Source of the DNA: a virus
Lineage: Duplodnaviria > Heunggongvirae > Uroviricota > Caudoviricetes
Length of the DNA: 4,544 bases
Direction: 5' to 3' (one strand)
Virus record (IMG/VR): IMGVR_UViG_3300028911_000051
Span: 1-4,544 of that record
The position numbers and the translations under genes were made by a program. Of this stretch, positions 1 through 4,544 are shown in pieces (the stretch's first letter is position 1; each line of letters starts with the position of its first letter). Under the pieces are notes generated by a model, which saw only the letters and a list, made by a program, of their open reading frames with translations, ran no database searches and had not been told where the DNA came from.

Positions 1-24
1 GTCATGTTTTTCAGGCATCTTCAT
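1..24 (-). CDS. S: Class I holin S, N-terminal 8 codons only (gene continues beyond window start)
   Basis: Minus-strand ATG at 24..22 and a second ATG at 18..16 give MKMPEKHD, the Met-Lys-Met dual-start N-terminus of lambda-type holin S (S107/S105). Lies directly downstream of Q and pR'. Only 24 nt are visible. Confidence 0.6.
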
Positions 25-30
25 GTCTTA

Positions 31-44
31 CCCCCAATAAGGGG
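31..44 (-). promoter_or_regulatory. Shine-Dalgarno-containing stem-loop upstream of the S dual start
   Basis: Minus strand reads CCCC-UUAUU-GGGGG followed by UAAGAC-AUG; the G-run serves as the SD and is sequestered in a 4-5 bp hairpin. Matches the known lambda arrangement in which RNA structure controls S107 versus S105 initiation. Confidence 0.5.
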
Positions 45-138
45 ATTTGCTCTATTTAATTAGAAATAAGGTCGATTACTGATAGAACAAATCCAGGCTA
101 CTGTGTTTAGTAATCAGATTTGTTCGTGACCGATATGC

Positions 139-180
139 ACGGGCAAAACGGCAGGAGGTTGTTAGCGCAACCTCTTGCCA
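139..180 (-). other. GC-rich hairpin followed by GUUUUGCCC in the late leader, about 130 nt upstream of S
   Basis: Minus strand GGCAAGAGGUUG-cgcuaa-CAACCUCCUGCC (12-bp stem, one mismatch) then GUUUUGCC. Terminator-like but with a weak U-tract; function uncertain. Confidence 0.3.
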
Positions 181-315
181 CCCGCTTTCACGAAGCCAGC
201 CATTGCGCTGGTTTTCTTTTATGCAAAGCACACCGCACCGTAGCCACAGCGGATAAGGTGATTATTTTTGTCTGTCTGGTATTTGGTTTGATGTGCTTTC
301 AGAAAGGTCGTGATT

Positions 316-350
316 AAAACGCAAAAAGCCCCGAGATATTAACTCAGGGC
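316..350 (-). terminator. Intrinsic terminator about 30-65 nt downstream of the pR' start (tR'-like, Q-regulated)
   Basis: Minus strand GCCCUGAG (350..343), loop UUAAUAU, CUCGGGGC (335..328), i.e. an 8-bp stem with one G-U pair, followed by UUUUUGCGUUUU (327..316). On the + strand the same hairpin is followed by TTTATTT, so it may work in both directions. Confidence 0.7.
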
Positions 351-374
351 TTTATTTAACGAGTGCATTTATCC

Positions 375-416
375 ATCGTTGATGTCAAATTTACCCAACT
401 TTATTCAAAAAGTCAA
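375..416 (-). promoter_or_regulatory. Late promoter pR' with qut-type elements (Q-binding region between -35 and -10; pause-inducing -10-like element in the initial transcribed region)
   Basis: Minus strand TTGACT (416..411), 17-nt spacer, TAAATT (393..388), then TGACATC and AACGAT (380..375). AACGAT is the -10-like pause element described for lambda pR'. Located 40-80 nt downstream of the Q stop, as in lambda. Confidence 0.75.
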
Positions 417-458: not shown

Positions 459-1061
459 CTAACGTGTGACCGCATTCAAAATGTTGTCTGCGATTGACTC
501 TTCCTTGTGGCATTGCACCACCACAGTGCGTGACCAGGTGGGTTGAGTAAGGTTTGGGATTAGCATCGTTACAGCGCGATATGCGGCGCTTGCTGGCATC
601 CTTGAATAGCCGACACCTTTGCATCTTCCGCACTCTTTCTCAACAACTCTCCCCCACAGCTCTGTTTTGGCAATATCAACCGCACGACCTGTACCGTGGC
701 AATCTCTGCATCTTGCCCCCGGCGTCGCGGCACTACGGCAATAATCCGCATAAGCGAATGTTGCGAGCACTTGCAGTACCTTTGCCTTAGTATTTCCTTC
801 AAGCTTTGCCACGCCACGGTATTTCCCCGATACCTTGTGTGCAAATTGCATCAGATAGTTGATAGCCTTTTGTTTGTCGTTCTGGCTGAGTTCATGCTTA
901 CCGCAGAATGCAGCCATTCCGAATCCGGCTTGTGATTGCGCCATCCCCATAGCAGCCATCACATCAGTACCGGAAAGAGAGTCAGAAGCCGTAGCCCGTG
1001 GTGAGTCGCTCATCATCGGGCTTTTTGGCGAATGAAATTTAGCTACGCTTTCGAGTCTCAT
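459..1061 (-). CDS. Q: Late-gene antitermination protein Q (lambda-type)
   Basis: 200-aa ORF with ATG at 1061..1059, GAGGGG SD about 8 nt upstream, TAG stop at 461..459. The translation is lambda-Q-like throughout, including the CRDCHGTGR...CGRCKGVG zinc-binding CxxC...CxxC pair, and is followed by pR'/qut. Confidence 0.93.
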   Translation of the reverse strand: MRLESVAKFHSPKSPMMSDSPRATASDSLSGTDVMAAMGMAQSQAGFGMAAFCGKHELSQNDKQKAINYLMQFAHKVSGKYRGVAKLEGNTKAKVLQVLATFAYADYCRSAATPGARCRDCHGTGRAVDIAKTELWGRVVEKECGRCKGVGYSRMPASAAYRAVTMLIPNLTQPTWSRTVVVQCHKEESIADNILNAVTR

Positions 1062-3700: not shown

Positions 3701-3731
3701 AATAAAAAGGCCTGCGATTACCAGCAGGCCT
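3701..3731 (-). terminator. Intrinsic terminator downstream of the helicase gene (tR2-like position)
   Basis: Minus strand AGGCCUGC (3731..3724), loop UGGUAAUC, GCAGGCCU (3715..3708), a perfect 8-bp GC-rich stem, followed by UUUUUAUUU (3707..3701). Unidirectional, because the + strand has no T-tract after the stem. Confidence 0.65.
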
Positions 3732-3759: not shown

Positions 3760-4544
3760 TCAGAATCCTCCTTTCTTCTTGGACTGCGGTTCCTCGCGTT
3801 CACGGCGGCGCATTTCAGCAGACTGTTGGTCTGTGTCATAAATAGCGCCATTTGCCTGAATGCAATACACCGTGCCGGTATTGCCATGACGATTGAGACG
3901 AAGGATTAGTTCGGTTTCACCAGGTGGAACACTGTCATCAAAAGCACCTTCACGATGGATCCCCACCCAATAATCGCAATCCTGTTCAATCTGCCCTGTA
4001 TCTCGTGAGTCACTTGGTAATGGGCGTTTATTGGTTCGGCTTTCCAGTGCGCGGTTAAGCTGTGTCAGAAGCACAACAACGCAATCAAGCTCTTTGGCAA
4101 GGTTCTTCAGTCCTTTGGTGATCATGCCGTAAGCAAGGTCGTTGCGATCGGCCTTTTCAGCGGTCATTAGTGTCAGGTAATCGACCAGAATCATGCCAAC
4201 GCATCCTTTTTCTCGCTTGATTCGACGGCTTTCGCTGACGATTTGAGCCAGAGATAATCCCGGCGTGTCGTCGATGTAAAGCAGGTCGATTTCACTCAAG
4301 CGATTGGCTGTTTCGATCGCCCTGTTGAAGTCACCATCGTAATCACCCTGATAGCCGTCATCAGCGTCATTTGTCGCCGGAAGGTAAAAAATATTCGGGT
4401 TAACACCTGACTTCTGTCCTACCAGTTTTTCCAGTATCTGATCACCTGGCATTTCAAGGCTGAACATCAGAGCGGGCTTTTTCTCATGCACTGCGCAGTT
4501 GATTGCCATCTGGCTGTATAGCGTCGTTTTCCCCATCTTAGGGC
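3760..4544 (-). CDS. DnaB-family replicative DNA helicase, C-terminal RecA-like domain (5' end of gene lies beyond the window end)
   Basis: ORF runs to the window edge. It shows ..GKTT (end of Walker A), ILVDYLTLM (Walker B/H2), LLTQLNR (H3 with arginine finger) and SRDTGQIEQDCD (H4-like), typical of DnaB and phage P22 gp12-type helicases. TGA stop at 3762..3760. Confidence 0.9.
   Translation of the reverse strand, partial: PKMGKTTLYSQMAINCAVHEKKPALMFSLEMPGDQILEKLVGQKSGVNPNIFYLPATNDADDGYQGDYDGDFNRAIETANRLSEIDLLYIDDTPGLSLAQIVSESRRIKREKGCVGMILVDYLTLMTAEKADRNDLAYGMITKGLKNLAKELDCVVVLLTQLNRALESRTNKRPLPSDSRDTGQIEQDCDYWVGIHREGAFDDSVPPGETELILRLNRHGNTGTVYCIQANGAIYDTDQQSAEMRRREREEPQSKKKGGF

What the first reader, a model, noticed from the sequence alone, without database searches (positions are those of the whole stretch)
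316..416. pR'/qut is lambda-like, but an intrinsic terminator sits only about 30-65 nt into the late transcript
The -35, -10 and AACGAT pause element match lambda pR' closely, with two substitutions in the spacer where Q binds and one extra base before the start site. Immediately after the pause region the sequence departs from lambda and forms a strong hairpin plus U-tract, so the constitutive pR' transcript would be only about 60 nt, whereas the lambda 6S RNA is about 194 nt. The segment between this terminator and the S leader (about 190..375) also looks unrelated to lambda, while 1..188 is again lambda-like. This suggests a recombinational replacement of the tR' module, leaving Q to act on a much closer terminator.
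Basis: partly seen in the sequence, partly recalled or inferred. Interest (0 to 1): 0.5.

Follow-up and report, generated by a model that had tools for sequence, protein, structure and literature searches.

The report
Ordinary P22/HK97-type late-gene terminator

Summary
On the minus strand, a lambda-type Q gene (459-1061) is followed by pR' (-35 at 416-411, -10 at 393-388). Next come the AACGAT pause element (380-375) and a strong hairpin (353-325) with a U-tract (to 316). A transcript ending there would be about 60-62 nt. Against lambda there are two spacer substitutions and one extra base before AACGAT. Homology to lambda is lost at about 357 and resumes at about 195.

The arrangement is not unusual. 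The 480-base region is 95-98% identical, end to end, to HK106, mEp234, HK022 and HK97. The promoter-to-terminator block is the one the curated P22 record annotates as P late, qut and "t late or tR', antiterminated by gene 23 protein". Of 127 sampled lambda-type qut sites, 72 carry this close terminator and 49 the lambda 6S-type leader. So module exchange relative to lambda is real, but lambda is the minority form. Qλ structural work implies Q is loaded before any terminator RNA is made.

Verdict: already known, low interest.

Side finding: this window's Q is lambda Q with a unique in-frame 7-residue deletion (181-187) in a NusA-contacting segment, so its function is doubtful.

The parts
459..1061 (-). 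Q antiterminator gene (Qλ family), 200 aa. Identical to lambda Q at all 200 aligned residues but lacks residues 181-187 (KPLYDAL).
   Evidence: ORF list. BLASTP against lambda Q gives 200/207 with a single 7-residue gap.
411..416 (-). pR' -35 hexamer TTGACT
   Evidence: Promoter scan. Identical to lambda and P22. The P22 record annotates the homologous 29 bp as 'P late or PR''.
394..410 (-). 17-bp spacer holding the Q-binding element (QBE). It differs from lambda at 409 (A->T) and 399 (A->G).
   Evidence: Alignment to lambda. Both variants occur with both downstream module types in 127 sampled sites. The mEp/HK records annotate this as a lambda qut site with 1-2 mismatches.
388..393 (-). pR' -10 hexamer TAAATT
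383..388 (-). -35-like element TTGACA, overlapping the end of the -10. This is where sigma region 4 is repositioned in the Q-loading complex. The extra base (A at 383) makes it consensus and puts it 2 bp from AACGAT instead of 1 bp.
   Evidence: Direct reading. The role of the element comes from PMC9388147. The extra-base variant is present in 13 of 72 P22-type sites, including HK97 and mEp234.
375..380 (-). Sigma-dependent pause element AACGAT (-10-like). The first A is taken as transcript +1.
   Evidence: Identical in lambda, P22, HK022 and HK97. The P22 record places the late RNA 5' nt on the homologous A.
358..380 (-). Predicted 5'-terminal RNA stem-loop (AACGAUG / CA-CUCGUU). This is the last stretch homologous to lambda.
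   Evidence: Fold. The same stem is possible in lambda. A rare third class keeps it as AAGAAUG/CAUUCUU, but single-base variants within classes break pairs.
325..353 (-). tR' terminator hairpin: an 11-bp stem (353-343 with 335-325, G+C-rich core 350-343 with 335-328) and a 7-nt loop (342-336).
   Evidence: Terminator scan and folds. Homologous to P22's 't late or tR'' at 37917-37945 and to the terminator annotated in phage Emek. The stem is nearly invariant and the loop variable among 45 unique relatives. Stem changes in ES18, ST104 and Louie are compensated.
316..327 (-). U-tract UUUUUGCGUUUU. The first three U can pair with the A-run at 353-351. Predicted RNA 3' end at about 321-319.
   Evidence: Direct reading. 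Sequence conservation drops sharply immediately 3' of this tract.
196..315 (-). Leader segment unrelated to lambda but shared with the HK022/HK97/mEp-type phages and diverged in P22. It contains a hairpin at 215-192.
   Evidence: Alignments, identity counts, whole-leader fold.
25..195 (-). Lambda-type S-proximal leader, 98% identical to lambda over 1-195. It includes a hairpin at 179-150 followed by GUUUUG, and the CCCC/GGGGG stem at 44-31 just before S.
   Evidence: Alignment and identity counts. Fold.
1..24 (-). Start of holin gene S with the dual-start motif (ATG at 24-22 and ATG at 18-16). The gene runs off the window.
   Evidence: Direct reading. Annotated as holin in all matching phage records.

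Best explanation
This is the Q-dependent late-gene regulatory cassette of a lambdoid prophage, in the P22/HK97/HK022 version.

Proposed mechanism:
1. RNA polymerase starts constitutively at pR'. Sigma-70 region 2 then re-binds the AACGAT element in the first transcribed bases, and the polymerase pauses with an RNA of about 16-17 nt.
2. Without Q, the polymerase escapes the pause, transcribes the G+C-rich hairpin (+28 to +56) and its U-tract, and releases an RNA of about 60 nt. The lysis and morphogenesis genes stay off.
3. With Q, the protein binds the QBE in the promoter spacer and contacts the paused complex. [quoted passage not shown]
4. Because that happens before any terminator RNA exists, the hairpin cannot form at the exit channel. 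The polymerase therefore reads through tR' into S and the late operon.

On this view the distance of the terminator from the pause is not mechanistically critical. This is consistent with two natural versions, about 60 nt here and about 194 nt in lambda, serving almost identical Q proteins.

Shown here: sequence identity of every element to annotated counterparts, the stability and conservation of the hairpin, and the module boundaries.

Inferred: the start site, the pause, termination, and Q-dependent read-through in this particular sequence.
For: - Collinearity. The 480-base region is 94.6-97.9% identical over its full length to HK97, HK022, HK106, mEp234 and others. 77 phage records cover at least 80% of it (alignment).
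- Annotation. The curated P22 record annotates the homologous bases as P late/PR', qut, the late RNA 5' nt, and 't late or tR'; antiterminated by gene 23 protein action'. Phage Emek annotates the same hairpin as a rho-independent terminator.
- Q proteins. P22 gp23 is 97% identical to lambda Q. The two are stated to substitute for one another (PMC8022706).
- Short RNAs. Short antitermination-regulated RNAs from the late promoters of 21, phi80, 82 and P22 are cited in PMC7547250.
- Hairpin strength. 11 pairs, -17.5 kcal/mol, followed by a U-tract. The 70-nt fold has z = -4.04. Only 4 of 300 shuffles of the window contain an equally long terminator stem.
- Conservation. Among 45 unique relatives, the block from -35 to the U-tract is nearly invariant. 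Variation is concentrated in the loop, and there is high divergence right after the U-tract.
- Covariation. Compensated stem changes occur in ES18 and ST104 (CA/TG for AG/CT) and in Louie.
- Prevalence. 72 of 127 sampled lambda-type qut sites carry this terminator. 319 of 5,426 complete E. coli genomes hold at least 80% of the 700-base query.
- Mechanism. Taken from the Qλ structures in PMC9388147.
Against: - There are no transcript data for this sequence.
- The P22 annotation is by similarity to lambda (a TPA_inf record). I could not read the primary 1976 reference for the P22 short RNA or the P22 genome papers.
- The U-tract is interrupted (UUUUUGCGUUUU), so termination efficiency is unknown.
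- This window's own Q lacks residues 181-187, part of the segment (182-197) that contacts NusA. In this particular genome the switch may therefore not be operable.
- The extra base changes the spacing between the QBE and the pause element by 1 bp. Viable phages HK97 and mEp234 have it too, which argues it is tolerated.
Confidence: 0.9

Rival explanations
1. The arrangement is a rare, recent recombinant in which a foreign terminator was dropped unusually close to a lambda qut. This would create an atypical test of how near to the pause site Q can act, which is the novelty implied by the first reader.
For: Relative to lambda alone the region does look like a replacement, with breakpoints at about 357 and about 195.
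Against: - The same arrangement is found full length in HK022, HK97, HK106, the mEp phages and P22-like Salmonella phages.
- It is the majority form among sampled lambda-type qut sites, 72 against 49.
- It is present in 319 of 5,426 E. coli genomes.
- It is annotated as tR' in P22.
Confidence: 0.02
2. Besides being the by-product of the switch, the ~60-nt pR' RNA is itself a trans-acting, Hfq-binding regulatory RNA in lysogens, as shown for StxS of Shiga-toxin phages. This is not exclusive of the best explanation.
For: - Architecture. It has a 5' stem-loop, an A-rich linker and a terminator hairpin with a U-tail.
- Expression. pR' is constitutive in lysogens, and StxS sets a precedent (PMC7547250).
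- Conservation. The block is nearly invariant across Escherichia, Salmonella, Shigella and Klebsiella phages while its flanks diverge.
- Rfam. The only hit in the window is a sub-threshold match to the prophage sRNA family isrJ, at 28 bits.
Against: - The conservation is fully explained by the promoter, QBE, pause element and terminator.
- The isrJ score is below the gathering threshold of 37 bits. The alignment also starts inside the -10 hexamer, so it is out of register with the transcript.
- No target, Hfq-binding or expression data are available.
- The only free single-stranded stretch is very short (about AAAUAA plus the loops).
Confidence: 0.1
3. The cassette is intact in sequence but dead in this genome. 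The 7-residue deletion inactivates Q, so tR' permanently blocks the late genes and the prophage is cryptic for lysis.
For: - The deletion is unique. It is absent from 126 other sampled loci, the exact-protein index, a metagenome scan and the best matches among 5,426 E. coli genomes.
- It removes residues 181-187 from the four-helix body, and residues 182-197 contact NusA S1 (PMC9388147).
Against: - The deletion is in frame, and the other 200 residues are identical to lambda Q.
- Seven residues is about two helical turns, so the helix register could be kept.
- No functional data exist.
- The window ends at the start of S, so the integrity of the late genes cannot be judged.
Confidence: 0.35
4. 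The hairpin's main job is to end and stabilise the upstream early-right (nin-Q) transcript, or to insulate the late region from unmodified read-through, rather than to act as the Q-regulated terminator.
For: - It lies about 105 nt after the Q stop codon on the same strand.
- The same hairpin follows unrelated Q-type genes in ES18 and ST104.
- An A-run 5' and a U-run 3' of the stem give it a partly bidirectional look.
Against: - This role is compatible with the tR' role rather than an alternative to it.
- In every relative examined the hairpin lies between the Q-type gene (and, where one is recognisable, a late promoter) and the late genes or tRNAs. That is the tR' position.
Confidence: 0.05

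Closest known systems
Phage P22 late control region (P late/PR', qut, t late/tR'; BK000583 37852-37945) with gene 23 protein
   Same: The same block from -35 to the U-tract. The promoter hexamers, the spacer (including both 'substitutions' relative to lambda), AACGAT, the +8 to +27 sequence and the hairpin stem are all identical. The terminator is at the same distance from the start. gp23 is 97% identical to lambda Q.
   Different: P22 lacks the extra base before AACGAT. Its loop is UUUAACCG instead of UUAAUAU. Downstream of about window 295 the P22 leader is diverged from this one.
Late leaders of coliphages HK97, HK022, HK106, HK544, HK140, mEp234, mEpX1 and ECP1
   Same: Collinear over the whole 480 bases from the end of Q to the start of S, at 94.6-97.9% identity. 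HK97 and mEp234 also share the extra base.
   Different: Only point differences. Their Q genes are 624 nt (207 codons), without the 21-bp deletion.
Phage lambda pR'-qut-6S RNA-tR'
   Same: The Q protein, pR' hexamers, QBE (27/29), pause element and first ~23 transcribed bases are shared. The S-proximal 195 bases are 98% identical. The logic of the switch is the same (PMC9388147).
   Different: Lambda's terminator ends the 6S RNA about 194 nt from the start, and the sequence between +24 and the resumption of homology is unrelated (47% in a forced alignment). Lambda's tR' hairpin is longer, at -26.4 against -17.5 kcal/mol.
StxS, the pR'-tR' RNA of Stx phages (PMC7547250)
   Same: It is a short RNA made constitutively from an antiterminated late promoter and ended at tR' during lysogeny.
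   Different: StxS comes from a different Q/qut type. It is made as a 258-nt RNA and processed to 74 nt, and it is shown to bind Hfq and to act in trans. None of this was tested for the RNA here, and no sequence relation was found.
Rfam RF01393 isrJ (Gifsy-1 prophage Hfq-binding sRNA)
   Same: It is the only Rfam family with any match in the window (325-395, minus strand). The layout is similar: a 5' stem, an A-rich linker and an AAGCC...GGGGCUUU terminator.
   Different: The score is 28 bits against a gathering score of 37. The alignment begins in the -10 hexamer, upstream of the transcript start. Direct alignment to the Gifsy-1 locus is weak and needs an 11-nt gap. The window's RNA is not a member.

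Membership tests
Qλ-type Q-dependent late regulatory cassette (Q gene, pR', QBE, sigma-dependent pause element, terminator, late genes; as defined in PMC9388147) | A Q gene of the Qλ family immediately upstream | tested here: met
   The ORF at 459-1061(-) is identical to lambda Q at 200/200 aligned residues, with a 7-residue internal deletion. Lambda Q matches PDB 7UBM and 4MO1.
Qλ-type Q-dependent late regulatory cassette | A sigma-70 promoter pR' directly after Q | tested here: met
   TTGACT-17-TAAATT at 416-388(-). It is one of two promoter-like sites in the window. The hexamers are identical to lambda and P22.
Qλ-type Q-dependent late regulatory cassette | A Q-binding element in the promoter spacer | tested here: inconclusive
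   The sequence is 27/29 identical to lambda over 388-416. Both substitutions are common natural variants found with either leader type, and they are identical to P22, whose gp23 is interchangeable with lambda Q. Binding itself is not testable here. The contacted base positions are not given in the text I could read.
Qλ-type Q-dependent late regulatory cassette | A -10-like pause element in the initial transcribed region, with a -35-like element immediately upstream | tested here: met
   AACGAT at 380-375 and TTGACA at 388-383. The role of these elements is described. The spacing is 2 bp instead of lambda's 1 bp because of the extra base. That variant is also present in HK97 and mEp234.
Qλ-type Q-dependent late regulatory cassette | An intrinsic terminator between the pause site and the late genes | tested here: met
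   Hairpin at 353-325 plus a U-tract to 316. It is conserved, with compensated changes in relatives.
Qλ-type Q-dependent late regulatory cassette | Late (lysis) genes downstream on the same strand | tested here: met
   The dual-start holin gene S begins at 24(-). It is annotated as holin in all matching records.
Qλ-type Q-dependent late regulatory cassette | Q-dependent read-through of the terminator | not testable with these tools
   This needs in vitro transcription or a reporter assay.
P22/HK97-type close tR' module | Homology to P22 't late or tR'' (BK000583 37917-37945) at the same distance from the late RNA start | tested here: met
   The stem is identical to P22 and only the loop differs. 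It spans +28 to +56 here and +31 to +59 by the P22 feature coordinates.
Lambda 6S RNA | A transcript of about 194 nt, homologous to lambda 44587-44781 and ending at lambda tR' | tested here: not met
   Homology ends after about +23, and the rest is unrelated (76/162 in a forced alignment).
Rfam RF01393 isrJ | A covariance-model score at or above the gathering threshold (37 bits) | tested here: not met
   28 bits, E = 0.033, out of register with the transcript start. The true Gifsy-1 isrJ scores 100.3 bits.
Trans-acting pR'-derived sRNA (StxS-like) | Hfq binding and regulation of host targets in trans | not testable with these tools
   Only the architecture can be read from the sequence. The precedent is described.

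The most novel reading that the evidence does not exclude
The ~60-nt constitutive pR' transcript of the P22/HK97-type cassette may be a functional small RNA in lysogens, analogous to StxS, or a stabilising or 'stopper' 5' structure for Q-loaded complexes. It consists of a 5'-terminal stem-loop, an A-rich linker and the terminator hairpin. On this reading its near-invariance across Escherichia, Salmonella, Shigella and Klebsiella phages reflects selection on the RNA as well as on the DNA signals. The 5' stem is kept by changes on both arms in a rare third class of lambda-type qut sites (AAGAAUG/CAUUCUU), which hints that the RNA structure is itself under selection.
Probability: 0.1. Interest if true: 0.45.

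Novelty: already known. Interest (0 to 1): 0.1.

Why it matters
It matters little as a discovery. The close terminator is the annotated tR' of P22 and the usual form in HK97/HK022-type coliphages, and the Qλ structural mechanism already implies that terminator distance is not critical.

The useful outcomes are corrective:
- Lambda's 194-nt 6S leader is the minority version among lambda-type Q cassettes.
- The two 'QBE substitutions' are unlinked common polymorphisms.
- The terminator hairpin is a recurrent mosaic joint, shared even by phages with unrelated Q proteins.

If the short RNA had a function of its own, as StxS does, several hundred E. coli and Salmonella lysogens would be expressing an uncharacterised regulator. 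Nothing here shows that.

Tried and rejected
- Rfam search of the whole window at a permissive threshold. The only result was a sub-threshold isrJ match (28 against 37 bits), out of register with the transcript. I rejected it as membership after locating the true isrJ in Gifsy-1 (100.3 bits) and aligning it.
- Genome-collection scan (one genome per species) for the 38-base pause-to-hairpin string. It gave only 2 hits, which is uninformative for taxonomic spread because prophage content varies by strain.
- Searches for the Q deletion junction. It was not in the exact-protein index, the metagenome contigs, 126 other sampled loci, or E. coli complete genomes. The best E. coli matches are 100% identical on both flanks but 21 bases longer. 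The source of the window remains unidentified; the nearest phage over the whole window is ECP1, at 85% coverage and 97.3% identity.
- Primary P22 genome papers. They are not held in the library, so P22's tR' rests on the GenBank annotation and on a secondary citation.
- Covariation within the close relatives. The stem is essentially invariant, so there is no signal. Compensated changes appear only when more divergent phages are included.
- A plus-strand reading of the hairpin as a terminator. The tail after the stem (AUUUAACG) is poor in U and the scan did not call it.
- The 51-aa ORF at 76-231(-), annotated as hypothetical in mEp234. It straddles the mosaic junction at about 195. I did not pursue it.

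Full report
**Orientation.** All genes in the window run on the minus strand. In order they are a DnaB-type helicase (3760-4536), nin-region genes (ninB, a DNA methyltransferase, rusA, ninH) and Q (459-1061). The region in question follows, and then the start of holin gene S at 24. Over its whole length the window is most like coliphage ECP1 (85% covered, 97.3% identical), then mEp235, HK022 and relatives. It is a lambdoid (pro)phage of the HK/mEp kind.

**Checking the observation.**
- The minus strand carries TTGACT (416-411), a 17-nt spacer and TAAATT (393-388). After these come TGACATC, AACGAT (380-375) and 22 further bases.
- The hairpin AAAGCCCUGAG-UUAAUAU-CUCGGGGCUUU (353-325) follows, then UUGCGUUUU ending at 316.
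- Identity to lambda is 115/123 over 358-480, 76/162 (unrelated) over 196-357, and 191/195 over 1-195.
Homology actually continues to 358.
- The hairpin is strong: -17.5 kcal/mol alone, and z = -4.04 for the first 70 nt with 0 of 200 shuffles as stable.
- An equally long terminator stem appears anywhere in shuffled copies of the window in 4 of 300 trials.
- With +1 at the first A of AACGAT, the stem spans +28 to +56 and the released RNA would be about 60-62 nt.

**What it is.**
- A search of 50,697 phage records found 77 that cover at least 80% of the 480-base region. HK106 and mEp234 match at 97.9%, HK022 at 95.6% and HK97 at 94.6% over the full length. P22-like Salmonella phages match from Q to beyond the terminator (alignment).
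- The curated P22 record annotates the homologous bases as the promoter 'P late or PR'', the qut site and the late RNA 5' nucleotide. It also annotates, 30-58 nt downstream, the terminator 't late or tR'; antiterminated by gene 23 protein action to allow full late transcription'.
- Phage Emek annotates the same hairpin as a rho-independent terminator.
- P22 gp23 is 97% identical to lambda Q, and the two proteins are reported to substitute for each other (PMC8022706).
- Sy et al. (PMC7547250) note that short antitermination-regulated RNAs are made from the late promoters of phages 21, phi80, 82 and P22, citing Roberts et al. 1976 for P22. I could not read that primary source or the P22 genome papers.

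**How common it is.**
- I scanned public viral contigs for the lambda-type QBE/-10 string and classified what follows it. The 127 sites comprise 120 contigs, six named phages and the window.
- 72 sites have this close terminator, 49 have the lambda 6S-type leader, 4 belong to a third class and 2 are truncated.
- The two spacer substitutions occur with both leader types. For example, 37 lambda-type leaders carry the T/G spacer seen here, and 11 P22-type leaders carry lambda's A/A spacer. They are unlinked polymorphisms, not part of the swap.
- The extra base occurs in 13 of the 72, including the viable phages HK97 and mEp234.
- In complete E. coli genomes, 319 of 5,426 hold at least 80% of a 700-base query spanning the end of Q to the start of S.

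**Module structure.**
- Among 45 unique P22-type sequences, the block from -35 to the U-tract is almost invariant. Variation is concentrated in the hairpin loop and at the extra-base site. Sequence immediately 3' of the U-tract is highly variable.
- HK620 and several contigs share the block up to GGGGCTTTTT and then diverge. Some contigs join it directly to lambda's post-tR' sequence.
- ES18, ST104, 29485 and Hafnia phage Meifeng have unrelated upstream regions, with different Q-type proteins where these are annotated. They nonetheless carry the same hairpin and, in ES18, ST104 and 29485, the same downstream leader.
- In ES18 and ST104 the top of the stem reads CA/TG instead of AG/CT. In phage Louie, which has a lambda-like qut, it reads CGCGG/CCGTG. 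Pairing is kept in both cases, and all variants fold at -13 to -23 kcal/mol before a U-tract.
- The hairpin is therefore a selected RNA structure and a recurrent mosaic joint.

**Mechanism.**
- Yin et al. (PMC9388147) describe how Qλ loads. It binds the QBE as a monomer and engages a sigma-containing complex paused at the -10-like element.
- Qλ then repositions sigma region 4 onto a -35-like site immediately upstream of that element. With NusA it refolds its N-terminus into a torus at the RNA-exit channel.
- The RNA 5' end threads through the torus at a length of about 15-16 nt. After that, hairpins cannot form at the channel.
- Here the first base of the terminator stem is +28, so loading would be complete before any terminator RNA exists. 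A terminator at +28 to +60 is as compatible with this mechanism as one at +194. This step is inference from the published mechanism; nothing was measured on this sequence.
- The extra base turns the -35-like site into consensus TTGACA and places it 2 bp rather than 1 bp from AACGAT. It also adds 1 bp between the QBE and the pause element. Its presence in HK97 and mEp234 argues that it is tolerated. Whether it shifts the start or the pause by one base is unknown.

**Is the short RNA more than a by-product?**
- Its predicted shape is a 5'-terminal stem, an A-rich linker and a terminator with a U-tail. With the StxS precedent, this makes a trans-acting role conceivable.
- The only Rfam match in the window is to isrJ, a Gifsy-1 prophage sRNA. 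It scores 28 bits against a threshold of 37 and starts inside the -10 hexamer.
- The true isrJ scores 100.3 bits, and the direct alignment to it is weak.
- I do not file the RNA under isrJ, and I rate the sRNA reading at about 0.1.

**State of this copy.**
- The Q encoded here equals lambda Q at all 200 aligned residues but lacks residues 181-187, KPLYDAL. At the DNA level this is a 21-bp in-frame deletion (compare).
- I found the deletion nowhere else. It is absent from the 126 other sampled loci, the exact-protein index, a metagenome scan and E. coli complete genomes. The best E. coli matches are identical on both flanks but 21 bases longer.
- The deleted residues lie in the Q body (153-207) and overlap the segment 182-197 that contacts NusA S1.
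- Whether this Q still works is open. If it does not, tR' would hold the late genes off permanently in this prophage.

**Verdict.** The feature is the already known and annotated P22/HK97-type pR'-qut-tR' cassette. Interest is low.

Noticed in passing
window 459-1061 (-), junction between 522 and 521: The Q protein is lambda Q (200/200 aligned residues identical) with an in-frame deletion of residues 181-187 (KPLYDAL; 21 bp). The deletion was found in no other sequence searched: 126 qut loci, the exact-protein index, a metagenome scan and 5,426 E. coli genomes. It overlaps the segment 182-197 that contacts NusA S1 in the Qλ loading complex.
   Followed up: partly
window 358-380 (-); loci L025, L083, L105: A predicted 5'-terminal RNA stem (AACGAUG / CA-CUCGUU) starts at +1 and ends exactly where lambda homology ends. 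Lambda can form the same stem. A rare third class of lambda-type qut sites has the pause element AAGAAT and a matching CATTCTT downstream, so both arms changed and pairing was kept (shuffle frequency 1.4%). Against this, single-base variants within the main classes break pairs.
   Followed up: partly
loci L131 (ES18), L135 (ST104), L134 (29485), L136 (Hafnia phage Meifeng), L129 (HK620), L132 (Louie): The same terminator hairpin, with compensated changes at the top of its stem, follows unrelated Q/qut regions in several phages. Other phages diverge immediately after its U-tract. It behaves as a shared mosaic joint at the head of late operons.
   Followed up: partly
locus L137 (Gifsy-1) 33406-33480 (-): The sRNA gene isrJ lies after the Q82-type Q gene, isrK and anrP, and before tRNA-Arg and the lysis genes. 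That places it at the head of the late region. It has GTAAAT at +2 to +7 and a terminator resembling this tR' family. It may be Gifsy-1's own late-leader RNA, but I did not test this.
   Followed up: no
window 761-774 (+), inside Q: A TTGC-N6-TTGC motif lies on the strand antisense to Q. It sits at the same offset from the Q start as the C1-protein site of the a23 (paQ-type) antisense promoter annotated in P22 (37473-37486). The CII-activated anti-Q promoter therefore appears to be conserved.
   Followed up: partly
window 3708-3731 (-): A strong terminator-like hairpin with a U-tract lies 29-52 nt after the helicase gene stop. This is the same offset as the 'L2; similar to phage lambda' terminator annotated in P22 ninA.
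   Followed up: no
window 383-388 (-): The extra base makes the -35-like element next to the pause site a consensus TTGACA and puts it 2 bp from AACGAT. Lambda has TTGACT at 1 bp. This natural variant is in 13 of 72 P22-type sites, including HK97 and mEp234, and in none of the 49 lambda-type sites.
   Followed up: partly
window 150-179 (-) and 192-215: There are two further hairpins in the late leader. One is shared with lambda (GGCAAGAGGUU...AACCUCCUGCC followed by GUUUUG). The other lies in the non-lambda segment and, read on the plus strand, is followed by a T-run, so the scan called it terminator-like on the plus strand. Their roles are unknown.
   Followed up: no
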